DNA of 64,000 bases. Source: Hormiphora californensis. Lineage: Eukaryota > Animalia > Ctenophora. A program made the translations under genes and the position numbers. The stretch lies in contig CM035359.1 of NCBI GenBank assembly GCA_020137815.1, forward strand, positions 6,696,001-6,760,000, given 5' to 3'. Positions 2,347 through 46,000 of this stretch are shown here, in pieces (position 1 is the stretch's first letter; each line of letters begins with the position of its first letter). The notes under the pieces are model-generated. The model saw only the letters and a list, made by a program, of their open reading frames with translations, ran no database searches and was not told where the DNA came from.

Positions 2347-3099
2347 CCCTAGTAAAGGTCGCGCGGGCAATTATGGTGAAAATTGGCCAATCTACAAACA
2401 TTAATGCGCGAATCCTCAACAATATTGGCCAATCTTCGCTGGATGCGCAAATAGATTGGCCAATCTTCGCTGGCCATGGCTGAATTTCACAGCTGTTTCG
2501 CGCGCACACAACCCAAGATAACTGGTTTCGCGCCCCACGTCTATGCCACTCGATGCTCGACAAATCCCCCGGTAAGGGATCAGCCGATGATGCTATTTGA
2601 ATAATGTTACTTTGCTGACAGCATGCTTCCAATGAGATTTAATAACATGCAGCAATGTGAATTGAGATGATCCAATTATGAAATGTTACTTTTCGGTAAT
2701 CTGGTACAGTCTTATCGGTGCAGTGATACTATACTGATGTTAGGGATCAGAATGATTTGAAAAGTAGACACCAAGAGGATTGCAGAACACCCGGAATTTT
2801 GATTTTAGCATAACGGGAACCATTTCCTCCCCATGGCGCCCTTTTTAGGGACCAAAACGAGGTCAGGGCCAGAGGGTACTCGCGAAATACGGTCCACGGT
2901 CTCTGCGCCCCCAGCGACTCTCTCGACAGACACAAATTGGGTCGAGGAGAGTTAAAACTTCCTCAGAAATATTCAGGTGTTTTTGAATGACCGATATGAA
3001 AATTCAATTAAATGATATATATACCAAGTAAAATTTAAAATTACAAGAGCGGATTTGGCTCAGTTGATAGCAGCTTGTCTGTCACCCTCAGACAAATAT

Positions 3100-9800: not shown

Positions 9801-9847
9801 AAGGTGACTGGAGTTGATTGACATCGTGATGGTGATCCTCTTGACAT
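6809..9847 (-). CDS. CRE polyprotein, 5' part (PHD-like finger, RT, zinc knuckle, RLE)
   Basis: ORF 6749..9877; first ATG at 9847; the last ~14 aa of the ORF-track protein come from the inserted TIR. Confidence 0.85.
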
Positions 9848-10925
9848 CGGGAAAGTGTGATGAGCATCTGGTGACAAGGGTCACCAGGGATCCTCCTCGG
9901 TCCTCAGGCAACAGGGCACGTGACTATGTTTAAGCCACGCGTGCCCAAACAAAAAGACAGAAAAACGAGAAGAGACGAGAGAGAAACCAAAACACACAGA
10001 TTTTTTGAAACTGTCACCCCAAAACGACCGCGCATGTGAAATTTATCAATTTCGACGCGCACACCACACGTTAACATGTGATGTGACGCGCAAAAACATT
10101 CCGCGCATGAAAAGGGGGGTGACAGTTTCAAAAAATCCGACTTTAGATTTTAACGTTTTCCTTGGCATACGTTGCAGGCCCCTTATAATATAATATAAGG
10201 GGCCTGGAGGGAATACCGCGCTGGGGGGGAATACATAAACAATCATATCTCCGGTTCCAGATAAGGTACAGAAATCGTTTTGGTAGCGTTGGAAAGAGGA
10301 AGATAACAGCTTTAAAATGCAACCGGTTTCAGGTCTCTATCTTATCAGGAACAGGAGATATGAACCAAACTCCGCAAAATCGAGTGCGGTAAAATAAAAA
10401 ATTCGAGATTTTAATTCAAATTTGAAACAAAGTGTCCCTGCAGGGATCTGTGACGTCACTTTTTGAAAACAACCCATCTTTGAACGGTTATTGCTCAGCC
10501 TCCTGAAGTCCAATTTACTTCTCTCAAAAACAGCAAGGTAGATAATTGTCAGATCTAACAGCTAGTGAAAGAATCAAGTCAAACGGACTTCAGGGGCCAA
10601 AGTTATAAGCACCGCCGTTTTTTCGCTCGCAAAGTTATCTTCGACCCAGCCGGGCCCGTCCTGAGCTCAGGCCAAACGCGCGCGCGGCATTCCCTTCAGT
10701 CCCCTCGTTGCGGGGGTGCGCGCATGAGGGGGCTGCAGCGCATTCCAAACGTTTTCCCGCGGACGACGCGTGTGTTTTTGATGAGAGATTTTAGCTAAAA
10801 TTTAGTCCAATCTGCGCGCCGCGTCCAAGCGGCGTCGTCGCAATATTAATTTATTCGCGCGCTACGTCTAAATAGCCAACTGCAACGTAACGTATTTAAA
10901 CTAAATTTATTTCCATAAGGAACCA

Positions 10926-12163: not shown

Positions 12164-12357
12164 AGAGTTTATACGTCGCTAAGTAGCGGCGCTTACCACA
12201 CAAGAGAATGAAATCACCATTCTCTTACTCTTAATATCTCTTACACGAAAATAAGAGTTATTTTGGAAATCAGTCAGCACCTGTCGCTTACTCCAGTAAG
12301 CGATTGCGAAATCAATCAGCACCTGCTAACTTCAGTAAGAGTCGTATGATATCCCTC
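12164..12357 (+). repeat. Dispersed repeat end; second copy at about 24323-24516
   Basis: Near-identical ~195 bp beginning AGAGTTTATACGTCGCTAAG; this copy is cut by the LINE that follows. Confidence 0.75.
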
Positions 12358-12359
12358 TA

Positions 12360-14340
12360 TGGTTACGTTATGGAGTTCAGTGCTAGTGAGATTTACGATG
12401 TTTTGTCTAAGCTTAATGCTCGCAAAGCTGCAGGCCCTGACGACATTCATAGCGTTATCTATAAGGAATGTGCTGGTCCCTTGGCGCATCCCCTCTCGAT
12501 ACTTTATAACCAGGCATACAATAGTTCTGCTCTTCCTAACATCTGGAAAGCTGCTAATGTGGTGCCTGTACATAAGTCGGGGGACACCAAGGATGTGCGC
12601 AATTACAGACCTATATCGCTTACTTGTATCATTATGAAGATCCTAGAGAGATTGATTTATAACCGTTTACTTAGCGTTTGTATTAGTAAGCTTGACAGTA
12701 GACAGCATGGCTTCCTACCTGGTAGGTCGTGTCTGACTCAACTCGTCCTGTTCCTCGATGATTTGATTTCTAATGATAATGAGAGAGTTGCTACCGATAT
12801 TATATATTTTGATTTCTCCAAGGCGTTTGACTCAGTTAATCACGACTTGATTCTGAGTAAAATCCGTAATAGATTTGGTATTGATGGCAAACTTCTGGGA
12901 TTAATCAGGGTGTATCTTATGGGTAGAACTCAAAGAGTGGTTGTAGGAGGGTGTTTTTCTTCTTTTCTCTCTGTTCTTAGTGGTGTTCCCCAGGGTAGTT
13001 TGCTAGGGCCGCTTCTATTTGTTATGTTTATTGACGACATCACTGAGTGCCTCGTAGGTAACACCAAAATGCTGTTGTATGCAGATGACCTGAAAGTATG
13101 GAGTAAGGTTGCCTGCCTGCAGGAACACTTGGACTTGCAGTTCACAGTAGATTGTCTACAATCTTGGGCAGTTGCCAATAAGATGGTGTTTCACCCGGGT
13201 AAGTGTAAGGTAGTCTCTACCCGAACGAGCTATTGGGTTGCCACTTGGAGTCAGCTACCTTTCTATCTTTACTCCTACAAACTTGCCGGAGTTGTGCTCG
13301 ATAATGTGGATATTCAGCGAGATCTTGGTATCTATGTATGCCGGGATCTCGACTGGAGGTACCATTGTCAGTACATTCTTGGTAAGTTTACTGACAGATT
13401 TAACTTATTACGTAGAACTATGTATATGATTGTAAACCCACACCAAAAACGTACCCTCTATGTTACCCTGGTGCGCTCATTTCTTGAGCACTGCTCTCCA
13501 ATCTGGACCCCACACCACGTGGGTGTTCTCAATGATCTGGAGGCTGCTCAAAAAAGATGCATTAAGTGGGTGTATGGTGTTAGCCCCCTTGATAGTTGGA
13601 GTGAGCGTGATTATTACGATAAACTAGTGACTCTTCGTATTTTACCCATTCGTGAGCAATTTTATTTCAACGATATGAAACTTTTATTCAAGATTATCCA
13701 TGGCCTAGCTCCGTACGGCCTCCCGGGTTATATTTGTTATATTCTCCCTACGGATTACTCATACAGGTCTAGACTGAATAAAGATATTGTTGACGGGGTC
13801 GATACTACAACTATCAAGTGTACTGTTGACCCTTGCACCAGTACTTTCCGTAACAGTTTTTTCTACCGATCTGTTAAAGCATGGAATTCTATCCCATATG
13901 AGATTAGACAAGCTACTTCGTATGATAGCTTTTGTTTACGTTTCAAATGCCACATTTTCAACTCTCTTGGTGACTAGGTTTAATTTCTATTTACCCCCCC
14001 CCCCCTATGTTACTTCCTCCTTATACATGCGCTCAGTGGTTTTTGACCTCTACCTGTATCCTGCTGGCATACCGGCTGCAACACATCTTCGTCAACTCGT
14101 CAACTCACCTCGCCTGCCCAACTCTTCGGTGTACACGATGGCAGTGTTTGGGAGGCAGCACGGGCTGAGAGATTTTTCATGGACTTGTGTTTCTGTGTGT
14201 ATTTTACAAAATTACCGTATAGTAATTTTAATAGACTCTGTTAAGGTGTGTCCTGAGGGTGCCGCCTGTAACCGCGGGTTTTTACCCTGTTGGTGGAGCC
14301 CTATGAGCTCGTTATGATTTATAAATTTTCCCGTTTTAAC
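12360..14340 (+). mobile_element. 5'-truncated CR1/L2-group LINE with uninterrupted RT domain (ORF ends 13977)
   Basis: KAAGPDDI, NYRPISLT, QHGFLPGRSC, DFSKAFDSVNH, GVPQGSLLGPLLF and LYADD motifs; no endonuclease part; 3' boundary approximate. Confidence 0.9.
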
Positions 14341-16170: not shown

Positions 16171-19100
16171 TCAGTAACTATCCTCGTCATCGATATTACC
16201 TTCAGATGTTAGCTCCTCGTACTCCTAAGAAATGGTGTGTTCGAGTAAGACAATTGTGGTTTACAGTGTAACATTGGCAACTATTTAGAATAGTGGGGTG
16301 CTGCGTGGAGTAAGTGCAGTATATTAACTGTTAGAGCTTGCAGCAGGAACCGACCGAATCGTGAAATACTGGTCACTGATTGGTATTTGGTTGATAACCA
16401 GTCACGTGACCTAAATAACGAGTTCTAATTGGTTGGTTAGAGCTTGCAGTTAATGTACCTGGATAAGATCCTGGATGCTTCCAAGTGCGACATCAAACTC
16501 CGACTCCTCAAGTCCCTCGCCCACATACCTGAAACGCAGTAGTGTGGGTACTGTGTGCGAGTGTTCTGTGTATCTAATGGAGATAATAGGGCAGGGTATC
16601 ATGGGAAGCTGGGTCTATTTGAACTTAGTTCGCCAGAAAGGTGACCCATTTTGTGCTTACTCCAGACTTATTCATTTCCAACACTTTTGAGTTGAAGGCG
16701 AATAGTTTACAGATACTTGCTGTATTTGAAGACTATACTTTATACTGCGGATCACGGACACAGCTGCGACTCAACAAAGCTGTGACAGAATTGAAGGAAT
16801 ATTACTAACCAGTGCACGAAGGCTCGTTTCCGGAACATTCTCTGGAACTTCTCAATCAATCTCTGCCAGGGTTGTTGCACGGCAGTGCTATTGCTCAGCA
16901 TGACACAACTTCTGCTGACCTCTGCCATATCGTCATCGGGGAACACACGAGGCTTGTTACTATTCAAACCAACCTAAAATAGAATTAGAAGAGGCTTGTT
17001 ACTTTGATAAGTCACAACCTAAAAGTAGAATTCGGATTTTGTTGCAGTCGGACCCCGGTTTACTGGGATTCTCGGGGAAAAGGCTTTCGCCTTGGTGACA
17101 TAGACACCTGGCGCGACCGAGATTGAGCTCGGGGGTCGCGCAAGGTGTCTATGTCACCAAGCTTTCGCCTGGTAAATCGGGGTTCCGGTATATCGGGGCC
17201 CGGTGAATGGCCCTTCCGCCTACGTACGAACACCGAAAATAAGTAAGCCCAATTGTCTCATGATTCGTGTGCCAACACAACACTATACTGGTACACCCGT
17301 ACAGTCGTGTTCCTCTCACCCACACGGGGACCATATGATGACTTGATGATTCGTGAAAGTACCTTGAATCCGGTAGGCATCCAATCAACGAAATGTGTGT
17401 CTTTCCTTGTTTTTATGTTGGTGATCGCTTTGTTGATGTCACTTGAGCTACCCTGCTCGAAGTCACCTCGGAACAACAAACAACACGACATGTAGAGACC
17501 CTGCCTGGAAATATTATTATAGTTATAGTACAGCTTCCACCGTTAGAAAACAATTGTTTTCGAAGACTTGACTTCGAGATTCGACCTTATAATACTGATA
17601 GCGGTCGTGACATCTCTAAACCAATAATTGATAGACCAAGATTCTAGGGGTCCGTATAAAGCCCCCGCGGTATAGTCACACTTACTTGACATTACATTTT
17701 ACAAACTGTAAGCCTCCGCGGTATAGTTTATTAGATCACTTACTTGACATTACATTTTACAAACTGGCTCTTCTCCTCAAAGACCTCGCTTACAACTTGA
17801 CTTGTGTTGTAGCTGGTGTGGGCGATCCGCTCCTTGCTGATTAGTGGGGCCATACTCACAATTGGGAACCGCACAGACGGGAAGGGAACCTAGGGAGAAA
17901 CATGTGTGTAATTGTCTTCCACGAGGGACAGAGCGAGAGAATTAATGCATTTGATCATTGAATATTAAGTGTCTGCGATGGAAATATGACGATATGTTAG
18001 ATCACTATGTTAGTTTATGGATGTCCATTGTCCTTGCCCCGTGAACTTTGAAGCTTCTGATACAGGCCCTAATATTGGATTTATAAAGTGCATCACGTGT
18101 TGTACGATCTTACCAGGTTGGTTTGGAACTCGTTCAGATCGACATTGAGGGAGCCATCGAATCGTAAACTACCAGTGAAACTACTAACAGCCTGTAAACA
18201 TTAAGTTATTGCCTAATGAGATATAGTAATTTCTTCAAAATCACCCCAATGATTCAACAAGGGTACGCCACCCAACTATAAAAATCACTCCACTAAAATT
18301 GCTCTACCACAATATTGTCCTTATTTGAACGACAACATGCAATAATATTGCTTACCTGAGCGACAAGTCTGTTAAGATTGTAATAGTTAGGCCACTCTAC
18401 ATCAAGTTTCTCCCGGCACAGGTCGAATACTGCTTCATTGTCCATCATAAAACAGACATCGTTTAGGTGCGGTGTCAAAATGGAGTTGTACGGTTCAACA
18501 ATGGACGTGGACACCTGCAGTAGTTGACATGAGTTGTGGTGCGGATCAGCTGCATGGATGTGACATGCTAACGCAGTAAAGCAGCAAGCGCGACGAGAGC
18601 AGATCATGATCATGCGTTTCAAGGTACATGGTTCTGAAATTTGTGATACAATTAATTGAATTATTCTAACGAACTAACGGCGGGCGAAGGGTAAATGGCG
18701 AACTCAAGTTTGCACTTTTTCCCCAGCGAATCCTGGATCCGTTCCACTAAAAGCGAGGAAAACCCGGAGCCGGTTCCACCACCGTATGATCGGAAGAGCA
18801 GGATACCCTGGAGGCTGTCGCAGTTCTCAGCGAGACGACGGTATTTTGATTCAGCATTTTCGATGTGACTCCGACCGATGGAGTAGTAACCACGTGCATA
18901 GTTATCAGAGGAATCCTCTTTACCTGAATTATAGATATGACGATATGTGTTAGCATGTTCTTTTGAATCACCCCCTGCAGTTCTATGGTAGTATATGACC
19001 CCTATTATAATAGTTATCAAACTTACCTCTTGACTATTCACTAACTAACTAACAACTATAATATAACTCTACTAGAGTTACTCTAGACGTGTGATCATGA

Positions 19101-19730: not shown

Positions 19731-20793
19731 GATTTGCCTGGGGGGAGGGGTGATCTTCAAAGTCATGTATTATATGGTAACCATGGTAACCACTTACTAC
19801 ATGGTTGCCGTGATAAAGAGTGTAAAGAGTCGGAAATTTTTGGAAAATAGAGTGTATCTGAACATACTGTTAATTGTCTCTTTCTCAAGAGATACTGAGA
19901 ACAGTCTAATCTATAACAAGCCCTAACACGGTCGCTTGTAGTGGGAAAACGGTAATGGAAAACGAAGATACAGTAAGACGACGCGCAACCGTGACCAATC
20001 AGGGCGCTAGTACGTGCTGACACATGAACTTTTTGCCGCGCGTTATGCACCGTGCGCGTCTCCTTACTGTATTTTGCGTTACCGTATTTTGACTGCAAGC
20101 AGCACTGTAAGTTTTTGGATAAATTTTCACAAGAAAACTGAAATTTCAGTTTTACTATAGTCCTAGGCATTTGCGTAAGAAAGTGTCCGTTTCAGGAATT
20201 TTTAGATAACCATGCGAGACCTTCACTAAAAGTAGGCTATTGGTCCCTAGAAACACCAAAAAAAAGTCTACGACCTAGACTTCCCGAGAACATCTCTTAA
20301 TTTGGCGTTAATTGGGTATAATTGGCTAAAAAAGAAACAAAAATTCAAAATCATCGTAGAAGGTCGTAACTGGTCGCAATCGTTCAGAAATATTATTCTT
20401 ATCATCGTAAGATCATAAAAGTGACCCAATTATGTAAAATTGGTACCCAATTTGGCGTTAATTGGGTCAAATTGGGTCTAAATTGGGCAAAAATTCAAAA
20501 TCGTCGTGGTTGGTCGCGATCGTTCGGAAATAGCAACCTTATCATCTTGAATTCAAAATAGTGACCCAGTTGTGCCAAATTGGTGCGTAATTGGTCCTAA
20601 TTGGGCCTAATTGGCTAAAATTTATGCTTTTTTATGTTAGAACAAGACCGTCAATTTTCGCCCTGACTAGGGAAATAATTTGGAACAGCGAAATTCCTTC
20701 ACCAACGTGTCCCTAAGGGTTTTCTGGAACAATTATGAGCTTTGGAACTTGCAGCTTGAGGGGAATTATGGTCATTTCCGGGTGTGTGTCCCC

Positions 20794-23468
20794 TGTAATT
20801 TCAGGCTGAGCCCAATATTGTAAATAATTTTAGAATTGGAGTAGAGATAAAAATCAGGGCACGTAAGTGTGTAGCGCCCTCGCATTAGTGGAGGTAGACA
20901 CCCATGAAAAGTTCCTAACTCATTTGGTTAATTGGATAATTGGTTAATTAGATGTATGTATAGCCGTATTTCAACTAGTATTCAGTTCATATTATGACCG
21001 ACCATGCTTTGTGGCTTAGATAAGGTGTAAATGATCCTGAGGCCCTGATAGATATTCTTCAGGTGTTGCTAGAAAGCCTTCATATGTTGCTAGATACCCC
21101 TAGAACTCCCTAGATACACCTACATAATCATCCTAGAAACCCCTCAGAGCCCACAAGATTCTACTAAGTACCCCTCAGACCCGTTTGATAGCCTTTTAAG
21201 AGTTCAGACCCTTCTCTATACCCCTCAGAGCTAATTAGATACCCTCAGAACTTCTTCAGATCTACCTCTAGACCCCCTCAGACCCTGTTAGATACCTCTT
21301 AGGTCTTGTTAGATACCCTAGATAAAACCCTCCAAGATGCTCAGATTATACTAAACACCCATTAGACCGACTAGCAAAACTGGGGCGATCGTACCGATCG
21401 CAAATCGAGGGGTCTGTTTTTCTCTCTGCCTGTCTGCTATATGCTATGTGATGTGATCCCTCTCTTTTTCTCTCTTTCTCTCCCTTTTATACATGTGATG
21501 TGACCCCTCAAGTCGCAAGCAGTTCTCAACACGTGTGATACGTGATACCTACGAATCACGTCGTCACACTGACGGATCATGTCGTCACGCTGACGGATTA
21601 CGTCGTCACATTGACGGATCACGTCGTCACATTGACGATAGGGTGTCACAGTTAGATGAGACGTAAACATACCCTAGACCCTTCTAGCTTCTTATCACTC
21701 TAATAGACACCCTCAAAACAATCTACATACCCTCGAAATAATCTACATAGTAGGGTTTTATGGTTCTGTGGAATATCTAATGCCTAATTGGGTATGGGTG
21801 GTATCTAGAATGGCCTGAGATATATCTACCGTGTGGGGCAATAAAAATGCCCCCCCAAGTCTACCATAGTTCCAGATATCGTGGAGCGCTAAAATTTGGT
21901 TCAGTAACTTTATGAGACAAATAAATAACTTGACCAAAATTTCAGACCTCTAGCTCAAAATTCATTTTTTTGATCGGAATGAACATTGTCATTCATTCCA
22001 GGAAAAAATATTTTCCGGTTCAAAATTTAACCAATTATGTTTGGCTATCGATTAGCTTTCCAATGTGACCAAGATCAGCTAAATTGGACAACCACAAGAG
22101 ACACAGTGTCATGTTTCTTAAAGTTAGTCAGGTTATGTGATCTTCACTGAATCGTTGATCGTGTTCAGTATTACGAATTGGTCTAAGTGGTAGAGAATCA
22201 CGTATCACATCTGCTAATGAGGGATGACGATGCTGATTGGTCATGAGATCTGTAGCTCTTTGATAAATGTCCTCTTTCCTCGAATCACATCACCCTGTAT
22301 TGGTACACATACCCAATTAACGGCCATGATACGAGATTCCTTTGCCCATTGGCCCGATTAGCAATCTCGGAAACTAAACGATTCGATGAAGATCACATGA
22401 CCTGACTAACTTAAAGCAACATGACACTGTGTCTCTTGTGTTTGTCCAATTTAGCTGACCTTGGTCCCATTGGAAAGCAAATCGATAGCCAAACATAATT
22501 AGTTAAATTTTGGACCGGAAAATATTTTTTCCTGGAATGAATGACAATGTTCATTCCGATCAAAAAAATGAATTTTGAGCTAGCGGTCTGAAATTTTGGC
22601 CAAGTTATTTATTTGTCTCATAGAGTTACTGTACCAAATTTCAGCGCTCCACGATATCTGGAACTATGGTAGACTTGGGGGGGCATTTTTATTGCCCCAC
22701 ACGGTACAAGGATCTGATCGAGACTTGAGAGGTATCAAGAAGGGTCTAATGTGTATCTAGTAGAGTCTGAGTAGGTCTTATGGGTACCTAGTACGGTAAG
22801 ATATGGGTATCTAGAAGGATCTGAAGGGCATCTAGTGGAGTCTCAGAGTCTGAGGGGTATCTACTGGGGCCTGAGGGATCAGGAGGGATATCTTGTAGGG
22901 GTATTGTTTGAGGGTTTACTGTACGAGTATCTAGGATGGTTTAGGGGCATCTAGCATTGTCGCAAGATCTTAGGGATATCTAACAGGGTCTGAGGGGGTC
23001 TAGGGGTAGATCTGAAGAAGTTCTGAGGGTATCTAATTAGCTCTGAGGGGTATAGAGAAGGGTCTGAACTCTTAAAAGGCTATCAAACGGGTCTGAGGGG
23101 TACTTAGTAGAATCTTGTGGGCTCTGAGGGGTTTCTAGGATGATTATGTAGGTGTATCTAGGGAGTTCTAGGGGTATCTAGCAACATATGAAGGCTTTCT
23201 AGCAACACCTGAAGAATATCTATCAGGGCCTCAGGATCATTTACACCTTATCTAAGCCACAAAGCATGGTCGGTCATAATATGAACTGAATAATAGTTGA
23301 AATACGGCTATACATACATCTAATTAACCAATTATCCAATTAACCAAATGAGTTAGGAACTTTTCATGGGTGTCTACCCCCTAATGCGAGGACGCTACAC
23401 ACTACGTGCCCTGATTTTATCTCTACTCCAATTCTAAAATTATTTAATTTGGGTCAGCCGAAATTACA
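20794..23468. mobile_element. Large foldback element with ~500-bp near-identical arms
   Basis: 20794-21300 is the reverse complement of about 22978-23468; non-coding. Confidence 0.8.
21829..22704. mobile_element. Long-TIR non-autonomous element with TA TSD (Tc1/mariner-pogo type), nested in the foldback
   Basis: TA-CCGTGTGGGGCAATAAAAATGCC...GGCATTTTTATTGCCCCACACGG-TA; ~310-bp arms. Confidence 0.85.
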
Positions 23469-25730
23469 GAAAACAGCAAACCCCTAACTGCACCAATCTC
23501 GTCAGAAAATAATTTTAAAGGTTTCCATATTTCCACGGGCAAATACACGTTCTAAAATAAAAACATAAATTCAGTTCACTTACCGTTGATTTAGTAGCTG
23601 TAGTAACTTTGTAGTGGTTGACCGAGTAAAGAGAGTCAAGTTATACAATGTAGTGATTGGGCCCATTCACTGTTTATTTTCTCTTTTATATTGCACACCC
23701 GCGGTCATGGGTGACATTATAGTGCTGCTATATTTAGCTGCCATGATCATTGTTTAGCTAAGTTGTCAACTGGGTGGTAGAGGCGGAAATGTAATTGATA
23801 ACATTGGATATATCCGTAACATAATACCCAATACCAATGACTGTCAGCAAGTTAGCAAATGATTGTTTTAGTTTTAGTTCGACATTGAGGGAAATCATAC
23901 GACTCTTACTGCAGTTAGCGACAATCGAGAAAACAGACAGCATAACTCTTTTAAGCGACAGTGCTGTGTAATTTCTCAAAACTCTTATTCTTAGTGAGCA
24001 ACAGGGAAAAGAATTGGGGAGAGAAAGTGAGAGACAGGGTGCCCCCTTGAGAGAGATTATCTCGCGCGGCGCATTGGCACGTGCGGTTTGGGCGCTGGCA
24101 GGCTTTTGCATGTTGCAACATGTAAAAGCCTGCCAGCGCCCAAACCGCACGTGCCAGGGCGCCGCGCGTTACTATCTTGCTCTCTCTCACTCACTAGCTA
24201 CATTCTGATTGGCTGTTATCGATCACATGTACGCAGTCACAGGCTATCCCTGTGCACTAGGACTTATCACGTGACCTTTCACGTGACCACATGCTGAGAT
24301 CCCCGGTCAGTTAAGAGTTTTAAGAGTTTATACGTCGCTAAGTAGCGGCGCTTACTACACAAGAGAATGGAATCACCATTCTCTTACTCTTGATATCTCT
24401 TACAAGAAAATAAGAGTTATTTTGGAAAACAGTCAGCACCTGTCGCTTACTCCAGTAAGCGGTTGCGAAATCAATCAGCACCTGCTAACTTCAGTAAGAG
24501 TCGTATGATATCCCTCATTGCTACGTTCTGGGTGATACATACAAAGAAACAGCTTCCCCTATTATAATAGGGCCCGAGTTGGATTTGAATAACTTTTGAG
24601 TAATGAGTACCGTGTGCTAGGTGTTTGTTTATCTTTATAATGCAGGCAGCTGTAGCATGACACTAGCCATGAGGTGTTTCTATTCTCAGCTAGCAATATG
24701 ATCAATGGGTTTCTAATCCGATTTCCTATGACATCACGAAGATGACATCCCCATTGAATATAATATTCCAGCGAACATGCAGAGGGACGACGCCACACGC
24801 CCAAACATTATCCACAGATATATCCTGTCTATCTCTTTCTCTCCAACTCTTCACTCTCCCACTCCCCGGCCATCTCTTATTGCATTATTATCTTTGAATA
24901 TCGATACCTATAATCCTATCGTACACTCTTCTTTACCTTCCAAACATATTCCTACCCGTCCTGTCCTTTGTACTGCGTTGAACATCGTTTATCCTGCCAT
25001 TGCAGCATGCCCCAAGCTTATAAATATCGTGGTCTTGTTAGTGACCATCAATTACTGAAAGTTCATTCTGTTAGCTTAGTCAAGCACACACATATAATAT
25101 TGTAGGAAGTCCATTATAAAATCAACTCCCGTGATCGGGCTATCAAGGTATTACTTCTTTGCCTTGCTGATCGAGTAGCTCTCGAACTTTTTCTCAGTCC
25201 CCAGTCCCACTCTCAAAGAGATTTAATATGTTCCTGCATGACCTGAATATATGTTCCATTCCACGAAATTCCCACATAATTTAACCATCTAGTCTGCATG
25301 ATGGGAATTTCATATATTCAGCTCATGCTCCTGAAAGGGGGTTGAATTACATCTAAAATAAAATAAAATCACCCTTCCTTTGTGTTTTCTGTTTCTGAAT
25401 TGCCCATCCCTTTAGGAGCTGCAGCTTGTTCAAGTTCGGAGCTCCTTGACCGATTGAGCTGAATCTATCAGCTATGCTTTATGCTATATTGGATCTGGAT
25501 ATTTTAGTATCTTATTCTTAGTATTATGCTATCATCATCATTATTAGGCAGTAGTATATGGCGAGGATTTGGGACCCCTTTTTCGCTCGAATATGTCACT
25601 TCCATATATGGGCATGTCACGTGACACACATGATGTCACGTGACGTCACATGATGTCATATGATGTCACGTGATTATGACGTCACTTTGTGACTTTTGTG
25701 ACGTCACTAGCGCTGACAAGGAATTTTAAA

Positions 25731-25800
25731 GATCAGCTGGGTTTGAACTCGCTACCTTTGTAGCAAAAGTCAATCTCTTAGACCACTCGGCCACCGTGGC
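25731..25800 (-). promoter_or_regulatory. Mirror copy of the tRNA-like Pol III unit in the left TIR
   Basis: Reverse complement of 29346-29415. Confidence 0.6.
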
Positions 25801-26333
25801 AACAAAATCTTTGAAATTTGAGACGTTTTTAAATAGTAGGACTAGTGCCGTGATAATTGATCGTCTCTTTGTGACCTTTGTGACCTAGCCTAATGTACCG
25901 GCAAGGGCCACAGTATAGTGTAAAATGGTTGTACCACCTAAAAATGGGGTACACACGTGATCATAAAATAAATCAGTAAATCTGCGTAGAGCTGGCAAGC
26001 AACATTTGAAAATGGATGTTTTTAGCCGTTCCTAGCCATTCCTAGCTATTCCTTGTTAATTATAGGATTCGGAAAAGAGTTCCGAGTGTTCCTAGTCTAT
26101 TCTCCATATGCTATATGGGTGTTCCTAGCAGTTCTTTGGTGCTTTAATATGTTCCTAGTGTTCCTAGTCTGTTATTCACCGTTATTGGGTGTTTCTTGCC
26201 TGTTTCACACATCAGCAGGAACACACAGGAACATCATAAGAACGCGTTGGAACGGTTAAAAACAACTTAAAACACAGAAAATACGCTATTTTTGGTTGAT
26301 CTAAATAAATAGAATGATAATACATACATCAAC

Positions 26334-27098
26334 TTAATTTTCATATTCTAGACTTGCAATAAGTGATAGTGTTCTCCCGATAATTTGAAAAATATTGTAA
26401 AACTCTTTCGAATGTTTTAAAAGTAGCCGTTTAATTTCTTCTAGGCTTTTGCAATCCACCAGATTGATCAATTTTCTACCGTTCACACTTAGACGCTTTC
26501 TCTGAGGGACAACAAGAGGAACAACTCCATACTTTAGACCGATAAATAGGCTTTTAATCGCTTTGACTAGTCTATTGCTGCGTACAATCGAAGCATAGCC
26601 TTTCATATCCATCAATCGTCGTAGTTCTAGATAGTCTCGGATATTTTTAGAGTTGATTATTGTATCCGAGAACTCATAGAACTTCGTGTCATTAAAATTA
26701 GTCTTGAATTCATCTAATTGTTTCTCAAACAGGAGAATTCTCTCAAGATGCTGTTTTGTTTCATTCAACTTTGATTTGTACAATCTCTCATATTTCCGAG
26801 CTTGTTGATCTCGTTTTCGGTACAACGACTTGAAGTCAATATCCTTCAATGGATCAGATTTTTCCTCAATATCATCTTCCTCAATATCATCTTCCTCAAT
26901 ATCATCTTCCTCATCCTCCAGATCAATATTTACTTCATTAACCTTATTTATTGATGATTCCTCATTTGGAACGTCTTCTGTTTTGTCATCAGCTGAGTCA
27001 CTACCAGTCGGCCCCCATTTTTTGTGATCATATTTTTGATGTTGAAGAAGAAGATAAACAGTCGTAAATTCCTCATCGCACAAATCGCATGGAAACAT
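26334..27098 (-). CDS. Polinton-borne 254-aa protein: C2H2 zinc finger, acidic tract, coiled coil, basic helical C-terminal domain
   Basis: FPCDLCDEEFTTVYLLLQHQKYDH; TATAAAAGG at 27140-27132; intact ORF. Confidence 0.8.
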   Translation of the reverse strand: MFPCDLCDEEFTTVYLLLQHQKYDHKKWGPTGSDSADDKTEDVPNEESSINKVNEVNIDLEDEEDDIEEDDIEEDDIEEKSDPLKDIDFKSLYRKRDQQARKYERLYKSKLNETKQHLERILLFEKQLDEFKTNFNDTKFYEFSDTIINSKNIRDYLELRRLMDMKGYASIVRSNRLVKAIKSLFIGLKYGVVPLVVPQRKRLSVNGRKLINLVDCKSLEEIKRLLLKHSKEFYNIFQIIGRTLSLIASLEYEN

Positions 27099-27165
27099 GT
27101 TTACAGAAATGAATTAAAAAAGACAAGTGTTCCTTTTATAGTCGTCACTGTTCCTACATCGGTGC

Positions 27166-27555
27166 TTACTGTTCCTCTTTATTCCCACAATTTGGACAAT
27201 CTTCGTTCTCTTCCGAGAACACCTTTTCCGTGATATCTTCCACTATTTCTAGATTTTGTTGGAGCAATTCGCGAATCACGAACAATGAGTCGTTATCCTT
27301 TATCGCATTTATCAGAAGCTCCTCTTCTGGTGTCAGCTCAATCTCAGTCAAATCTGCATTAATTAGATATTGCTTCAAACCAAAACATTGCAATAGGCTC
27401 GAGTATGGCGTTTCACTTTCGACTTTTGGTGAATCCATCTCTTCATCAGACAATTCCACCTCCGAGTCAGAGTCTGTGTCAGGGTCAGAATCAGAGCTGT
27501 TTCGCTTTTTGTCATTCAAGCGTATAGTTTTTAGAAAAGAAGTTGAACGAGACAT
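27166..27555 (-). CDS. Polinton-borne 129-aa acidic protein with C-terminal CxxC
   Basis: Intact ATG ORF; TATAAAAGG at 27599-27591. Confidence 0.7.
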   Translation of the reverse strand: MSRSTSFLKTIRLNDKKRNSSDSDPDTDSDSEVELSDEEMDSPKVESETPYSSLLQCFGLKQYLINADLTEIELTPEEELLINAIKDNDSLFVIRELLQQNLEIVEDITEKVFSEENEDCPNCGNKEEQ

Positions 27556-28054
27556 TGTTCGAAATGATTACTTTTCATGGAAAACATCTCCCTTTTATAG
27601 CGTTCCCGGGTGTTCTCTCGACGTTCCGATGTGTTCTTTTCAAAAGCTAATTGGTTCCTCTGTGTTCCTTTCGGAACCCTTTGATTCCTTGCTGTTCTTT
27701 CGATTTCATGTTTATTCTTAGGTGTTCTTAACCGTTCTTACGACGTTCCTGTGTGCTCCTGTGATACGTGAAAACAAACGAGAAACACCCAATAACGGTG
27801 AATAACAGACTAGGAACACTAGGAACAGATTGAACCACAAAGGAACTGCTGGGAACGCCCGTAGAGCACACGGAGAATGGACTAGGAACACTAGGAACGC
27901 TTTTACGGTTCCTAGAATCAGCAAGGAACGGCTAGGAATACCTAGGAACAGTTATAAACACCCATTGGGTTGCTTGTCAGCACGTCGATAAGAGAGGTAG
28001 AACATCCAGTAATTAGGTATATAAACCACGAGTATTCAGTTTTATTATTTCAAA

Positions 28055-28489
28055 ATGGATACATTTATCTCCACTGTACCCGATGACCTCAAAGAAGTCT
28101 ACAAAAAACACTGGGCTACTATTAGACCGAGCGTTAAAAATGGATTATTGAAAGACATGTATCATTTTCCAATCTCTCCTTATGATAGCATCCCTGGGAA
28201 GCTCGGTGGAGTACTGAAATATTACAAAAAACCTGTAAAAGTCAATGTAGCTTTTGGATACATATTAAGGAACACTGAAACGGATGAGTTGAAGTTTTTC
28301 CATCCATCCAACAATACAATGGTGTTTGAAACAGCACAAGTCATAGCAGATCAAGACGATATAATGAAAGTAAAGAATGAAATCGAAAGAGATGATTTAG
28401 TTGAAATAGCACGCGAATCAAGACATTCTTCGAAATGGGTGGTTGAGACCATTGTTTGCATACGTTTTGATGTATACAGATATTCTTGA
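28055..28489 (+). CDS. Polinton-borne 144-aa protein resembling the N-terminal (terminal-protein-like) domain of Polinton pPolB
   Basis: KVNVAFGYILRNTETDELKFFHPSNN...SKWVV pattern recognised from memory; TATATAAA at 28018-28025; CAAAATGG start context. Confidence 0.7.
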   Translation: MDTFISTVPDDLKEVYKKHWATIRPSVKNGLLKDMYHFPISPYDSIPGKLGGVLKYYKKPVKVNVAFGYILRNTETDELKFFHPSNNTMVFETAQVIADQDDIMKVKNEIERDDLVEIARESRHSSKWVVETIVCIRFDVYRYS

Positions 28490-29345
28490 AGTTTTTATTC
28501 ACAAATTCAATGATTAATAGAGTTTAAAATGCAATCGGAGAACACTATCACTTATTACAAGTCTAGAATATGAAAATTAAGTTGATGTATGTATTATCAT
28601 TCTATTTATTTAGATCAACCAAAAATAGCGTATTTTCTGTGTTTTAAGTTGTTTTTAACCGTTCCAACGCGTTCTTATGATGTTCCTGTGTGTTCCTGCG
28701 ATGTGTGAAACAGGCAAGAAACACCCAATAACGGTGAATAACAGACTAGGAACACTAGGAACATATTAAAGCACCAAAGAACTGCTAGGAACACCCATAT
28801 AGCATATGGAGAATAGACTAGGAACACTCGGAACTCTTTTCCGAATCCTATAATTAACAAGGAATAGCTAGGAATGGCTAGGAACGGCTAAAAACATCCA
28901 TTTTCAAATGTTGCTTGCCAGCTCTACGCAGATTTACTGATTTATTTTATGATCACGCGTGTACCCCATTTTTAGGTGGTACAACCATTTTGTTTTTTTC
29001 AACATTTAAAAAAAATCAGTTGTTTTATGACTTTTTATACGTTTCATGCATCCGCTTTCATGAAAAGAAATTGGAAAATACATATCTATATAATCCCCGA
29101 TAGTTGTATAATCAGTCGACGTTCATGGTACATATATAGCTCTCAAATATCTAGATATGTCGTCCTAAGTCCATCCTCCAGCACCTTTCTCTTCACGTAA
29201 ATGTGGTTAAGACCCGATTTTTTCACAGAGTACTGTGGCCCTTGCCGGTACATTAGGCTAGGTCACAAAGGTCACAAAGAGACGATCAATTATCACGGCA
29301 CTAGTCCTACTATTTAAAAACGTCTCAAATTTCAAAGATTTTGTT

Positions 29346-29415
29346 GCCACGGTGGCCGAGTGGTCTAAGAGATTGACTTTTGCTACAAAGGTAGCGAGTT
29401 CAAACCCAGCTGATC
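29346..29415 (+). promoter_or_regulatory. tRNA-like Pol III A/B box unit in the right TIR
   Basis: A box TGGCCGAGTGG at 29353-29363 and B box GTTCAAACC at 29398-29406 with tRNA spacing; stems do not pair well. Confidence 0.6.
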
Positions 29416-29837
29416 TTTAAAATTCCTTGTCAGCGCTAGTGACGTCACAAAAGTCACAAAGTGACGTCATAATCACGTGACATCATATGACATCATGTGA
29501 CGTCACGTGACATCATGTGTGTCACGTGACATGCCCATATATGGAAGTGACATATTCGAGCGAAAAAGGGGTCCCAAATCCTCGCCATATACTACTTTAG
29601 GCGTGTCTAGTATAAAGTTATAGTGATCTTATATACGAGGAAGACCTATAATCTCTTGTGTAGATACTCGAGTAAGCCGGAAGAAGTCTAAGTACCCAAC
29701 ATTCAAACAATGTACCGTAGTTTGTTATGTTCTAATAACCATTAACCCTCCTTCGAAATTTGTTTGCCACTGCGGGGAGAGGTGCACTGATGCAGAGGGA
29801 TGGTCGAGCAAGGCAAGGCCGTAGTGTGACGTGTTAT

Positions 29838-30001
29838 AGGGAAATAGTCGTGCCTGAATCTCAGGTTCAGGTCACGGCTTTTTATCCCTGAGATTTTAGG
29901 GAAATTTATCAGGGAATAGCCTATAACAACCCCGAAACCTCAGGTCTCAAGGGCAAATAATAGTGACCTGAAACTGAGGTTCAGGCACGACTGTTTCCCC
30001 T
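29838..30001. mobile_element. MITE, GGGGAAACAGTCGTGCCTGAA family; other copies about 38319-38480, 32421-32455 and 55355-55427
   Basis: Imperfect TIRs and several copies in the window. Confidence 0.65.
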
Positions 30002-40000: not shown

Positions 40001-43000
40001 AATTGCAGTGTATGTAGGGGATGACATGATGAATATGCTGTTTTTTCTTGGAACCAGAGCATTCATCATCTGGCAAAGAGGGCTTAGCCATGATCATAAT
40101 TCCATCAGCCTTTTGCGGGATAATTTCTGCAGTCATTGCAGTAGGGGGAGAAGCTTTAAGAAGACAAAACCATTGCGACACTCAGCTCAGGTGTTCCAGC
40201 TATCTGTATTAATTACAAAGCCATATGTTTCAACTTTCATTCATCATACATGCACAATATGTAATTTATTATTGAGAAGTCGAGTTCTATAGAAGCAATT
40301 TCCTATAGGAATTCCTTCTGCAAATCTTCCCGAAAAGCTCGCCTGTCATTTCTCTCTTTTTCTCTCTCCATGAACCAATTGAAACCAGCTATTGCATCAT
40401 GGTCATAAACTCCTATCCCTGCAATGCTTCCAGAAGTTTTAATGCTGTCAGGTATAACACACGTACTTTTCGCTGGTAGTTATTATAGGAGTCATCTTTT
40501 GAAACCACTATCATTCAGGTAGGCGGTAAATGTTAACCAGATCTGAGAGAAAACGTACGTGCAAAACCACGTTTTTGTCCATAACTCAGGCATTTCTTGA
40601 CCAATTTCCAAAATCTTGGGTGCGTTGGAAAGAGGACATTGAGCTCTTTCAAATGAGCCCAATAAAACTAAAATCGGCGCTAAATGCGCGGCGTCATGGC
40701 GCAAAATGCGCGTTTTCGCCACCACGCCGCGCAATTTGCGCCAATTTTTATTTTCTTGAGCTCATTTGATAGATCTCAATGTCCTCTTTCCAATGAGCCA
40801 AAGATTTTGCAAATTGGTCAAGAAATGGCTGAGTTATGGGCAAAAACGTGCGAAATTCTCACAGATCTGGTTAACATTTACCGCCTACCTATCATTCAGG
40901 CTTGAAAAATGAAACAAAGCCTGTATGGCGGCGCCCATTATAACCCAATTTGACAGTGCGCTCAGATGGGGTCAGCGGCGCCAGACAGAACAAAGCTAAA
41001 GCACATATGAAGCAAACTGTTATAAAGCCGGGCCATAAAGCTAGTAAAGTTGATATTTAATTAATTAGTATGGTATCTTCATGCGTCAAACCGAAATCTT
41101 TCAATGCCTTAAATCGTATTGACCTATTTCAATGCTGATCGACAGATTCGATAAACTCGATATAATTAATAGATGATTAATAGGTCTTCACAAAATGTCA
41201 AACGTGTAAATATTTTTCTCTGCCCCCCTCTCTCTCCCTCTCAATCTGGCTCTCTTCTCATTCTTTGTCCATTTTCACTCGTAACTATATGCTCTATGAA
41301 TGTATGATATATGTGAGTCATGACTCGCATAATATATTGCAGTGCAACATACACTATAAGACAGGTGTGAGAAGTAAAACAATTTTCTAGAACTTCCAAA
41401 ATTTCCTTCCTGTGTTCAAAAGCTGAGCAGCATGCAGGCCCCCCACGAAAGGAACCACCCTACCATATAGCTTCTCCTGAAAGGAACCACCCTACCATAT
41501 AGCTTCTCCTGAAAGGAACCACCCTACCATATAGCTTCTCCTGAAAGGAACCACCCTACCATATAGCTTCTCCTGAAAGGAACCACCCTACCATATAGCT
41601 TCTCCTGAAAGGAACCACCCTACCATATAGCTTCTCCTGAAAGGAACCACCCTACCATATAGCTTCTCCTGAAAGGAACCACCCTACCATATAGCTTCTC
41701 CTGAAAGGAACCACCCTACCATATAGCTTCTCCTGAAAGGAACCACCCTACCATATAGCTTCTCCTGAAAGGAACCACCCTACCATATAGCTTCTCCTGA
41801 AAGGAACCACCCTACCATATAGCTTCTCCTGAAAGGAACCACCCTACCATATAGCTTCTCCTGAAAGGAACCACCCTACCATATAGCTTCTCCTGAAAGG
41901 AACCACCCTACCATATAGCTTCTCCTGAAAGGAACCACCCTACCATATAGCTTCTCCTGAAAGGAACCACCCTACCATATAGCTTCTCCTGAAAGGAACC
42001 ACCCTACCATATAGCTTCTCCTGAAAGGAACCACCCTACCATATAGCTTCTCCTGAAAGGAACCACCCTACCATATAGCTACTCCTGAAAGGAACCACCC
42101 TACCATATAGCTACTCCTGAAAGGAACCACCCTACCATATAGCTACTCCTGAAAGGAACCACCCTACCATATAGCTACTCCTGAAAGGAACCACCCTACC
42201 ATATAGCTACTCCTGAAAGGAACCACCCTACCATATAGCTACTCCTGAAAGGAACCACCCTACCATATACTACCTAACCCTACATATAGCTACTCCTGAA
42301 AGGAACCACCCTACCATATAGCTACTCCTGAAAGGAACCACCCTACCATATAGCTACTCCTGAAAGGAACCACCCTACCATATAGCTACTCCTGAAAGGA
42401 ACCACCCTACCATATAGCTACTCCTGAAAGGAACCACCCTACCATATAGCTACTCCTGAAAGGAACCACCCTACCATATAGCTACTCCTGAAAGGAACCA
42501 CCCTACCATATAGCTACTCCTGAAAGGAACCACCCTACCATATAGCTACTCCTGAAAGGAACCACCCTACCATATAGCTACTCCTGAAAGGAACCACCCT
42601 ACCATATAGCTACTCCTGAAAGGAACCACCCTACCATATAGCTACTCCTGAAAGGAACCACCCTACCATATAGCTACTCCTGAAAGGAACCACCCTACCA
42701 TATAGCTACTCCTGAAAGGAACCACCCTACCATATAGCTACTCCTGAAAGGAACCACCCTACCATATAGCTACTCCTGAAAGGAACCACCCTACCATATA
42801 GCTACTCCTGAAAGGAACCACCCTACCATATAGCTACTCCTGAAAGGAACCACCCTACCATATAGCTACTCCTGAAAGGAACCACCCTACCATATAGCTA
42901 CTCCTGAAAGGAACCACCCTACCATATAGCTACTCCTGAAAGGAACCACCCTACCATATAGCTACTCCTGAAAGGAACCACCCTACCATATAGCTACTCC

Positions 43001-46000
43001 TGAAAGGAACCACCCTACCATATAGCTACTCCTGAAAGGAACCACCCTACCATATAGCTACTCCTGAAAGGAACCACCCTACCATATAGCTACTCCTGAA
43101 AGGAACCACCCTACCATATAGCTACTCCTGAAAGGAACCACCCTACCATATAGCTACTCCTGAAAGGAACCACCCTACCATATAGCTACTCCTGAAAGGA
43201 ACCACCCTACCATATAGCTTACTCCTGAAAGGAACCACCCTACCATATAGCTTACTCCTGAAAGGAACCACCCTACCATATAGCTTCTCCTGAAAGGAAC
43301 CACCCTACCATATAGCTTCTCCTGAAAGGAACCACCCTACCATATAGCTTACTCCTGAAAGGAACCACCCTACCATATAGCTTACTCCTGAAAGGAACCA
43401 CCCTACCATATAGCTACTCCTGAAAGGAACCACCCTACCATATAGCTACTCCTGAAAGGAACCACCCTACCATATAGCTACTCCTGAAAGGAACCACCCT
43501 ACCATATAGCTACTCCTGAAAGGAACCACCCTACCATATAGCTACTCCTGAAAGGAACCACCCTACCATATAGCTACTCCTGAAAGGAACCACCCTACCA
43601 TATAGCTACTCCTGAAAGGAACCACCCTACCATATAGCTACTCCTGAAAGGAACCACCCTACCATATAGCTACTCCTGAAAGGAACCACCCTACCATATA
43701 GCTACTCCTGAAAGGAACCACCCTACCATATAGCTACTCCTGAAAGGAACCACCCTACCATATAGCTACTCCTGAAAGGAACCACCCTACCATATAGCTA
43801 CTCCTGAAAGGAACCACCCTACCATATAGCTACTCCTGAAAGGAACCACCCTACCATATAGCTACTCCTGAAAGGAACCACCCTACCATATAGCTACTCC
43901 TGAAAGGAACCACCCTACCATATAGCTACTCCTGAAAGGAACCACCCTACCATATAGCTACTCCTGAAAGGAACCACCCTACCATATAGCTACTCCTGAA
44001 AGGAACCACCCTACCATATAGCTACTCCTGAAAGGAACCACCCTACCATATAGCTACTCCTGAAAGGAACCACCCTACCATATAGCTACTCCTGAAAGGA
44101 ACCACCCTACCATATAGCTACTCCTGAAAGGAACCACCCTACCATATAGCTACTCCTGAAAGGAACCACCCTACCATATAGCTACTCCTGAAAGGAACCA
44201 CCCTACCATATAGCTACTCCTGAAAGGAACCACCCTACCATATAGCTACTCCTGAAAGGAACCACCCTACCATATAGCTACTCCTGAAAGGAACCACCCT
44301 ACCATATAGCTACTCCTGAAAGGAACCACCCTACCATATAGCTACTCCTGAAAGGAACCACCCTACCATATAGCTACTCCTGAAAGGAACCACCCTACCA
44401 TATAGCTACTCCTGAAAGGAACCACCCTACCATATAGCTACTCCTGAAAGGAACCACCCTACCATATAGCTACTCCTGAAAGGAACCACCCTACCATATA
44501 GCTACTCCTGAAAGGAACCACCCTACCATATAGCTACTCCTGAAAGGAACCACCCTACCATATAGCTACTCCTGAAAGGAACCACCCTACCATATAGCTA
44601 CTCCTGAAAGGAACCACCCTACCATATAGCTACTCCTGAAAGGAACCACCCTACCATATAGCTACTCCTGAAAGGAACCACCCTACCATATAGCTACTCC
44701 TGAAAGGAACCACCCTACCATATAGCTACTCCTGAAAGGAACCACCCTACCATATAGCTACTCCTGAAAGGAACCACCCTACCATATAGCTACTCCTGAA
44801 AGGAACCACCCTACCATATAGCTACTCCTGAAAGGAACCACCCTACCATATAGCTACTCCTGAAAGGAACCACCCTACCATATAGCTACTCCTGAAAGGA
44901 ACCACCCTACCATATAGCTACTCCTGAAAGGAACCACCCTACCATATAGCTACTCCTGAAAGGAACCACCCTACCATATAGCTACTCCTGAAGGAACCAC
45001 CCTACCATATAGCTACTCCTGAAAGGAACCACCCTACCATATAGCTACTCCTGAAAGGAACCACCCTACCATATAGCTACTCTGAAAGGAACCACCCTAC
45101 CATATAGCTACTCCTGAAAGGAACCACCCTACCATATAGCTTACTCCTGAAAGGAACCACCCTACCATATAGCTACTCCTGAAAGGAACCACCCTACCAT
45201 ATAGCTTCTCCTGAAAGGAACCACCCTACCATATAGCTTCTCCTGAAAGGAACCACCCTACCATATAGCTATCTCCTGAAAGGAACCACCCTACCATATA
45301 GCTTCTCCTGAAAGGAACCACCCTACCATATAGCTACTCCTGAAAGGAACCACCCTACCATATAGCTACTCCTGAAAGGAACCACCCTACCATATAGCTA
45401 CTCCTGAAAGGAACCACCCTACCATATAGCTACTCCTGAAAGGAACCACCCTACCATATAGCTTACTCCTGAAAGGAACCACCCTACCATATAGCTACTC
45501 CTGAAAGGAACCACCCTACCATATAGCTACTCCTGAAAGGAACCACCCTACCATATAGCTACTCCTGAAAGGAACCACCCTACCATATAGCTACTCCTGA
45601 AAGGAACCACCCTACCATATAGCTACTCCTGAAAGGAACCACCCTACCATATAGCTACTCCTGAAAGGAACCACCCTACCATATAGCTACTCCTGAAAGG
45701 AACCACCCTACCATATAGCTACTCCTGAAAGGAACCACCCTACCATATAGCTACTCCTGAAAGGAACCACCCTACCATATAGCTACTCCTGAAAGGAACC
45801 ACCCTACCATATAGCTACTCCTGAAAGGAACCACCCTACCATATAGCTACTCCTGAAAGGAACCACCCTACCATATAGCTACTCCTGAAAGGAACCACCC
45901 TACCATATAGCTACTCCTGAAAGGAACCACCCTACCATATAGCTACTCCTGAAAGGAACCACCCTACCATATAGCTACTCCTGAAAGGAACCACCCTACC

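What the first reader, a model, noticed from the sequence alone, without database searches (positions are those of the whole stretch)
25550..29596. 4-kb mini-Polinton that keeps three intact genes but no polymerase, integrase or capsid
Seen: AGTAGT/ACTACT ends, a perfect 6-bp TSD, near-identical long TIRs and three uninterrupted intronless ORFs, each with a TATA box 37-44 nt upstream of its ATG. Established: those termini and TSD length define Polintons/Mavericks, which are normally 15-20 kb and encode pPolB, integrase, ATPase, protease and capsids. Inference: this may be a satellite or defective-interfering element mobilised in trans by a helper Polinton and selected to keep a small gene set.
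Basis: partly seen in the sequence, partly recalled or inferred. Interest (0 to 1): 0.85.

Follow-up and report, generated by a model that had tools for sequence, protein, structure and literature searches.

The report
Mini-Polinton keeps primer, loses polymerase
A 4-kb insertion with the ends of a Polinton virus-like transposon, present on some chromosomes and absent from others, has no polymerase, integrase or capsid gene but keeps the gene for a predicted DNA-priming terminal protein, so it likely moves only with help from full-length relatives.

Summary
Real and young. The 4,047-bp element has AGTAGT/ACTACT ends, 828-bp arms and a true 6-bp duplication: short-read contigs of two samples hold the empty site. 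(1) ORF C is a stand-alone homologue of the terminal-protein (primer) domain of Polinton pPolB: 35% identity to that domain, little-finger-like fold, Ser126 in the predicted linking loop. (2) The right arm carries a 239-bp insert that starts with the last 29 codons of pPolB; a 97%-identical pPolB end continues in another individual. (3) ORF A ends in a GasderminX-like fold (weak). In relatives C is often the last gene before the tip, so position alone explains its retention. Best reading: a non-autonomous, centre-deleted derivative of a split-terminal-protein Polinton, likely shortened before a helper inserted it. A multi-copy satellite family is not shown: the polymerase relic is single-copy, and sister copies could be full length. 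Split terminal proteins are already known from one coral Polinton. This scan noted a gene-less mini-Polinton earlier on other DNA.

The parts
25544..25549 (.). left target-site duplication TTAGGC
   Evidence: single copy in the empty allele
25550..26377 (+). left terminal inverted repeat, 828 bp, AGTAGT tip (outer part 25550-25915, inner part 25922-26377)
25614..25674 (.). 10/20-bp palindromic tandem array (CACGTG/TGACGTCA motifs) near the tip; mirror at 29472-29532
   Evidence: same motifs near the tip of L002
25740..25793 (-). tRNA-like RNA polymerase III A box + B box, pointing to the tip
   Evidence: the only 2 matches in 64 kb, 0.01 expected; no tRNA call by ARAGORN or Rfam
26011..26244 (-). 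repeat R1 (GGAAC/GTTCC-rich), inside the left arm
26334..27098 (-). ORF A, 254 aa: weak C2H2 finger, acidic linker, long helix, C-terminal helical domain with a GasderminX-like predicted fold; TATA box at 27134-27140
27166..27555 (-). ORF B, 129 aa, acidic/serine-rich, no family found; weak match to an ORF upstream of the C homologue in L007; TATA box at 27593-27599
   Evidence: (E 0.037)
27733..27966 (+). repeat R2 between the divergent B and C promoters, 84% like R1/R3; matches the high-depth family variant at 12 of 15 listed sites
28055..28489 (+). ORF C, 144 aa, stand-alone homologue of the pPolB terminal-protein (D1) domain; candidate linking residue Ser126; TATA box at 28018-28024
28537..28991 (-). 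inner part of the right arm; its inner edge is a copy of the last codons of ORF A; holds repeat R3 (28670-28902)
28992..29230 (-). 239-bp insert in the right arm only: pPolB 3' end and its downstream flank
   Evidence: spanned by a 100%-identical contig
29143..29232 (-). last 29 codons and stop of a pPolB gene (relic, no start)
   Evidence: 58-60% identity to the pPolB ends of L015 and L022 (E 1e-8, 4e-9) and hits to 11 fetched proteins, 10 of them at or within 5 residues of the C-terminus
29231..29596 (-). outer part of the right arm, 366 bp, identical to the left; ACTACT tip
29353..29406 (+). mirror copy of the Pol III A box + B box
29597..29602 (.). right target-site duplication TTAGGC

Best explanation
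This is a centre-deleted, non-autonomous derivative of a Polinton whose predicted terminal protein (the protein primer) is a separate gene; it keeps both ends and the genes next to them, and was likely shortened before a helper's integrase inserted it here. Shown: the ends, a true TSD, an empty allele, no pPolB/integrase/capsid ORF, a pPolB 3' relic, and homology of C to the pPolB D1 domain. Inferred mechanism: when a full-length relative is active in the same nucleus, its pPolB starts at the AGTAGT tips with a terminal protein as primer (the helper's, or C through Ser126), copies the 4-kb molecule by strand displacement, and the helper's integrase inserts it with a 6-bp duplication. Template switches during such copying likely made the mosaic: the 239-bp pPolB tail with short matches at both edges, and a C gene whose two parts resemble two subfamilies. 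C and A were most likely kept because they lie next to the tips. C may still supply primer, which would be consumed at one molecule per new strand.
For: Empty site in 2 of the 3 samples laid. The arms differ at 3 places in about 820 bp, yet the element carries at least two separate rearrangements (core loss, pPolB-tail insert), more than a young insertion should collect in place. In X5, 3 contigs run on for a median 88 letters past exactly 29232; the listed one is 97% identical over 198 bp at depth 482, against 233-242 for the site. By eye, the 30 loose letters shown are stop-free in the relic's frame. C: 35% identity over 136 aa to residues 97-230 of the 1,388-aa pPolB P0034, just before its vOTU-like motifs at 276 and 372; model pLDDT 90.7 with the sheet-plus-two-helix layout; Y-family little-finger domains fill 8 of the top 13 PDB rows (Z 4.5-5.2); best viral hit is an adintovirus protein (E 4e-4); Ser/Thr at position 126 in 36 of 39 relatives. 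In 5 of 22 related loci the C homologue is the last gene 390-673 bp before an AGTAGT-type tip; in 5 of 22 it lies beside pPolB, integrase or protease genes. The R2-C junction recurs in X5 and X6 and the C-arm junction in X5, which looks empty at this site.
Against: No second full copy of the 4-kb structure was seen, and no contig spans the element. The pPolB relic is single-copy. Sister junctions could belong to full-length elements. If the parent had R upstream of both B and C, one recombination after insertion would remove the core. The fold scores are middling (Z under 8), C lacks the Pro/Gly near the linking residue (His124; Pro in 27 of 39), and priming is untested. Contig depth is only a rough guide to copy number.
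Confidence: 0.55

Rival explanations
1. A full-length Polinton inserted here and lost its core afterwards, for example by recombination between two R repeats, with host repair copying a piece of its own pPolB into the right arm. It is a dead relic whose three genes have not yet decayed.
For: Single-haploid depth across the pPolB relic (25.2). R2 lies exactly where left-end and right-end genes meet. C is subterminal in relatives. Most vertebrate Maverick copies are defective (PMC8097293, passages).
Against: It needs two rearrangements within the short life of a still-segregating insertion whose arms differ at 3 places. No longer allele at this site was listed in the 3 samples laid, though contigs break at repeats and tables were cut.
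Confidence: 0.25
3. An assembly artefact: collapse of a full-length Polinton between its repeats.
For: Long near-identical arms, three R copies, and only 0.58 of sampled words held by the best run.
Against: Short-read contigs span 27802-28186 and 28962-29260 at 100% identity in X1 and X3 (this sample may be the source). The low word share fits rare variants being dropped in favour of deeper family copies. The B-R2 stretch was not seen at 100% in the rows shown.
Confidence: 0.03

Closest known systems
Polintons/Mavericks (adintoviruses) of animals; PMC8097293, PMC8502044 and PMC10748475, passages read
   Same: (AGT)2/(ACT)2 ends, perfect 6-bp TSD, long TIRs, intronless genes, pPolB relic, GasderminX-like fold in ORF A
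   Different: 4 kb instead of 15-20 kb; none of pPolB, integrase, ATPase, protease or capsids as a gene
Polinton of Stylophora pistillata with the terminal protein as a separate gene; adenovirus pTP and PRD1 TP (Krupovic et al. 2024, 10.1101/2024.03.18.585575; section 6 and passages read)
   Same: C matches the D1/TP domain by sequence, predicted fold and a hydroxyl residue in the last loop; stand-alone gene
   Different: Here TP is the only replication gene left. It belongs to a broad stand-alone clade (34 of 46 short rows, support 94/74) often placed next to the tip. I did not compare it with the coral sequence.
Non-autonomous Polinton derivatives (Repbase N-type families, recalled; TIR-only copies in C. 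elegans, PMC11414722, passage; earlier scan note e1-7884016)
   Same: Ends kept, core lost, dependent on a helper
   Different: Those seen here are described as gene-less or TIR-only; this one keeps three intact genes and a Pol III-type cassette
Defective-interfering genomes and helper-dependent mini-adenoviral genomes (recalled, including the report that pTP stabilises them; not read)
   Same: Short genome with both protein-primed origins; traces of template switching
   Different: Integrated and inherited; interference and packaging untested

Membership tests
Polinton/Maverick (autonomous) | (AGT)2...(ACT)2 termini and long TIRs | tested here: met
   motif per PMC8097293
Polinton/Maverick (autonomous) | 6-bp target-site duplication made on insertion | tested here: met
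   TTAGGC twice here, once in the empty allele
Polinton/Maverick (autonomous) | protein-primed DNA polymerase B gene | tested here: not met
   only the last 29 codons; no ORF over 259 aa in the element
Polinton/Maverick (autonomous) | retroviral-type integrase, packaging ATPase, protease, major and minor capsid | tested here: not met
   three ORFs only, none matching these, while Pfam found rve, protease and ATPase-like domains in related loci
Polinton/Maverick (autonomous) | 15-20 kb length | tested here: not met
   4,047 bp
PRD1-type terminal protein (pPolB D1) | homology to the pPolB domain that precedes vOTU | tested here: met
   35% over 136 aa, E 3e-21; 58 of 186 rows have the domain followed by a vOTU-like motif
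PRD1-type terminal protein (pPolB D1) | 4-stranded sheet with two helices, like the Y-family little finger | tested here: met
   (Pol kappa Z 5.2, rmsd 3.5, 93 aligned; Pol IV 4IR1 Z 4.9, rmsd 3.1, 86 aligned); scores middling but repeated across the family
PRD1-type terminal protein (pPolB D1) | hydroxyl linking residue in the loop before the last strand | tested here: met
   Ser126; Ser/Thr in 36 of 39
PRD1-type terminal protein (pPolB D1) | Gly or Pro next to the linking residue | tested here: inconclusive
   Pro in 27 of 39 relatives, His in this copy and its closest kin
PRD1-type terminal protein (pPolB D1) | covalent link to the first nucleotide and the 5' DNA end | not testable with these tools
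   needs biochemistry
Helper-dependent satellite / multi-copy non-autonomous family | several copies of one structure at different sites | tested here: inconclusive
   no genome held; sisters share two junctions, the pPolB relic is single-copy
Helper-dependent satellite / multi-copy non-autonomous family | autonomous helper sharing the ends | tested here: inconclusive
   97%-identical continuing pPolB end and variant outer arms in X5, not linked on one contig
Helper-dependent satellite / multi-copy non-autonomous family | free linear DNA, packaging or interference | not testable with these tools
   only contigs were available
Adintovirus GasderminX | structural likeness of ORF A's C-terminal domain | tested here: inconclusive
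   top BFVD hit, prob 1.00, TM 0.73 on target, rmsd 2.8, 114 columns, but E 0.019; profile match to the L017 candidate E 0.053

The most novel reading that the evidence does not exclude
A family of primer-supplying Polinton satellites: integrated mini-genomes that discard the catalytic polymerase but are selected to keep the consumable terminal protein, use it to out-prime their helper, and carry a VA-RNA-like Pol III cassette in their ends; L010-L012 would be such minis in other marine hosts.
Probability: 0.17. Interest if true: 0.8.

Novelty: new variant of a known kind. Interest (0 to 1): 0.5.

Why it matters
How Polintons start replication rests on a 2024 structural prediction that pPolB's first domain is the terminal protein. 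A widespread 144-aa stand-alone version, with one candidate linking serine, is the simplest substrate to test that. A still-segregating 4-kb derivative points to which sequences may suffice in cis, and suggests recent helper-dependent movement. If copies recur with C conserved, Polintons have gene-bearing satellites; my paper searches did not find such a report (search listings only, in a library without most subscription journals). If the copy is single and deleted in place, it is an ordinary young relic that happens to expose the split-TP lineage.

Tried and rejected
No whole genome was held, so copies could not be counted. Run search: no RNA holder listed, which says nothing on expression. 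IMG/VR scans with C, A and B found no relatives; the 4 hits to the 17-bp tip match only 20-21 bp, carry no A/B/C homologue and were taken as chance; the inner-arm pattern found 0. Pfam and PHROGs gave only a sub-threshold zinc finger. The PDB sequence search with the C profile gave only weak TAF1 bromodomain hits (E 0.007 or worse), taken as chance. The PDB fold search of A returned coiled coils only. The ESM Atlas did not answer, so B stays unassigned. A real tRNA in the arms was rejected: no ARAGORN or Rfam call and no folding signal, z -0.44; only the A/B boxes stand. A as a homologue of the small post-ATPase protein of L017: E 0.053, inconclusive. A nested element with its own tip at about 25913: the motif resembles the tips of L002 and L004, and inner-arm contigs are deeper than outer-arm ones, but it is untested. 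A high-copy arm-A-B-arm family without C: hinted by joints 27708-28650 and, but R-to-A depth ratios differ between samples, so it is not claimed. One origin for all short C-like proteins was rejected: 12 of 46 short rows fall among fused ones (11 changes); the grouping left those 12 out after I had seen the first tree. Kapitonov and Jurka 2006 was not held. Supplements of the Krupovic preprint (coral Polinton map, Fig. S6) were not seen and may bear on how close this lineage is to it.
Full report
Observation. The element runs from 25550 to 29596 (4,047 bp), begins AGTAGT, ends ACTACT and is flanked by TTAGGC. These are the common Maverick end motif and TSD length (PMC8097293, passages). The outer arms are identical over 366 bp; the inner arms match over 456 bp with 2 substitutions and 1 indel; between them the right arm has 239 bp where the left has 6. 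Three ATG ORFs (A 254 aa and B 129 aa leftward, C 144 aa rightward) have TATA boxes starting 42, 44 and 37 nt upstream; 0 of 500 shuffles give three such ORFs. No other copy lies in the window, and no whole genome was held.

Age and reality. Of 22 runs listed, 20 hold part of the element; I laid 4 of them (3 samples). X1 and X3 (one sample, possibly the source) and X5 have a contig that joins the left flank to the right flank with one TTAGGC. In X1 this empty allele has depth 25.8, against 45-52 for the flanks and 25.2 for a 100%-identical contig across both edges of the 239-bp insert, which fits a heterozygous single insertion. In X5 the empty contig (233) is as deep as the flank (242). The tool warns that depth is no copy number, so I use single-contig depths as rough guides. 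No contig spans the element.

ORF C. 33 near-length homologues were found, mostly 142-152 aa, and 1,645 representatives at E 0.001 or better. C matches residues 97-230 of a 1,388-aa pPolB at 35%, just ahead of vOTU-like Cys and His motifs (motif reading from the Krupovic description). The model (pLDDT 90.7) has the sheet and two helices that Krupovic et al. give for the PRD1-type terminal protein (10.1101/2024.03.18.585575, section 6). Y-family little-finger domains, including 4IR1 which that paper uses, fill 8 of the top 13 PDB rows at Z 4.5-5.2; these scores are middling, and a designed protein ranks first. The best viral hit is an adintovirus protein (E 4e-4), with densovirus-labelled and MELD-virus polymerases lower down. 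Ser126 lies in the loop before the last strand, where the linking residue is placed; 36 of 39 relatives have Ser or Thr there, but this copy has His where 27 of 39 have Pro. Of 186 rows, 57 were short, 58 fused to a vOTU-like motif, 29 fused otherwise, 11 C-terminal and 31 partial. On a 75-row tree (46 short rows, every second fused row; 11 near-identical short rows and the C-terminal, partial and other-fused rows dropped), 34 of 46 short rows form a fused-free clade (94/74) and 12 scatter among fused rows; C sits in that clade. So C belongs to an old stand-alone family and is not a fresh break of pPolB. A separate TP gene is already reported for a coral Polinton.

Where C sits in relatives. 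One metagenome scan gave 22 loci from 244 candidates. In 5 (L002, L014, L015, L017, L022) C lies beside integrase, protease, ATPase-like or pPolB genes. In 5 (L002, L004, L010, L011, L012) it is the last gene, 390-673 bp before an AGTAGT-type tip; five other motif matches lay upstream or inside and were judged not to be tips. Zinc-finger, acidic A-like genes adjoin C in L004, L009-L012 and L016; only L004 is significant by tblastn (E 5e-8). A centre deletion therefore keeps such genes by position.

The polymerase relic. The insert begins with the last 29 codons and stop of pPolB, 58-60% identical to the ends in L015 and L022. In X5, 3 contigs run on past 29232; the listed one is 97% identical over 198 bp at depth 482. 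By eye, the 30 loose letters shown are stop-free in the same frame. In X1 the relic's depth is 25-54, so little else like it is seen in that sample. Short sequence matches at both edges of the insert (seen) suggest a double template switch (inference). C is also mosaic: residues 1-39 match P0006 at 36 of 39 but P0003 at 23 of 39, while residues 40-144 match P0003 at 103 of 105 and P0006 at 64 of 105. R2 is 84% like the arm copies and carries the high-depth letter at 12 of 15 listed sites.

Sisters and selection. The R2-C junction is held at depth 45 in X1, 93 in X5 and 77 in X6 (another species label). The C-arm junction has two variants in X1 (66 in all) and is present in X5 (88). Sisters therefore exist, but whether they are short or full length cannot be told. 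A and B contigs are much deeper than pPolB-tail contigs in X1 (375-438 against 25), which hints at many coreless copies or at helpers with a more distant polymerase. Of the 27 coding differences listed (best-supported rows only; 364 and 48 rows were not shown), 17 are synonymous: A 13/6, B 2/1, C 2/3. This shows constraint in the family, not in the mini form.

ORFs A and B. A has 24 near-length homologues at 58-89%, a weak C2H2 finger, and a C-terminal helical domain whose best viral fold match is adintovirus GasderminX (TM 0.73 on target, E 0.019), an accessory gene of beta-type virion modules (PMC8502044, passages). With its finger and acidic tract, A is most likely a regulator (inference). 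B has no family and one weak match in L007.

A side feature. Each arm holds a tRNA-type Pol III A box and B box, the only 2 matches in 64 kb against 0.01 expected. Similar boxes lie downstream of C in L007 and L012, and by eye in L003, where the contig ends. It is not a tRNA by ARAGORN or Rfam. One paper search gave three general reviews, listing only.

Mechanism and verdict. Best reading (0.55): a non-autonomous derivative of a split-TP Polinton, reshaped by template switching while copied beside a helper and inserted in short form by the helper's integrase; C can be read as its own primer but was probably kept by position. Rivals: deletion after insertion (0.25), a selected primer-supplying satellite family (0.17), artefact (0.03). 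It fails membership as an autonomous Polinton but likely works like a helper-dependent one. Non-autonomous Polintons are known (recalled from Repbase; TIR-only copies in PMC11414722, passage), and this scan noted a gene-less one on other DNA. Searches for a gene-bearing or TP-keeping mini (listings, plus passages of PMC6431247, PMC5718144, PMC10748475 and 10.64898/2026.10.13.758929) found none. New variant of a known kind; interest 0.5.

Noticed in passing
window 25740-25793 (-) and 29353-29406 (+); L007 2088; L012 2914; L003 3' end: tRNA-type Pol III A/B-box cassette near the ends of several related Polintons; possibly a VA-RNA-like transcript or an insulator
   Followed up: partly
window 25912-25934: The inner arm begins with a motif like the tips of L002 and L004, perhaps the relic end of a nested element
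   Followed up: partly
L010, L011, L012: A-like gene, C homologue and tip with no core gene in 2.5-3.1 kb; L010 and L011 part right after the tip. Candidate minis or right ends in other hosts
   Followed up: partly
P0019-P0024, P0031-P0033: Near-identical C homologues, some truncated, several on contigs of 168-454 kb: likely a multi-copy family in one other eukaryote
   Followed up: no
P0064, P0073: Proteins with two terminal-protein-like domains; P0064 has them behind zinc-finger arrays with no polymerase, possibly domesticated
   Followed up: no
window 29839-30000: High-copy inverted-repeat (MITE-like) element 240 bp right of the insertion, with many different loose ends
   Followed up: no
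window 6749-9880 (-), 12235-13977 (+), 3016-3912 (+): Long ORFs that look like non-LTR retrotransposon reverse transcriptases (label recalled); the first is a 1,043-aa open frame
   Followed up: no
window 41447-47087: 5.6-kb satellite of a 32-bp unit, 98% matches
   Followed up: no
window 20793-23469, 49813-50761, 56630-58996, 62472-63999: Several large fold-back or palindromic elements
   Followed up: no
window 18293-19044 (-): Frames resembling divergent alpha-tubulin exons (label recalled)
   Followed up: no
window 59622-60713 (+): Met/Gly/Ser-rich repeat ORF with a recurring Pro-Gly-Trp-Pro unit
   Followed up: no
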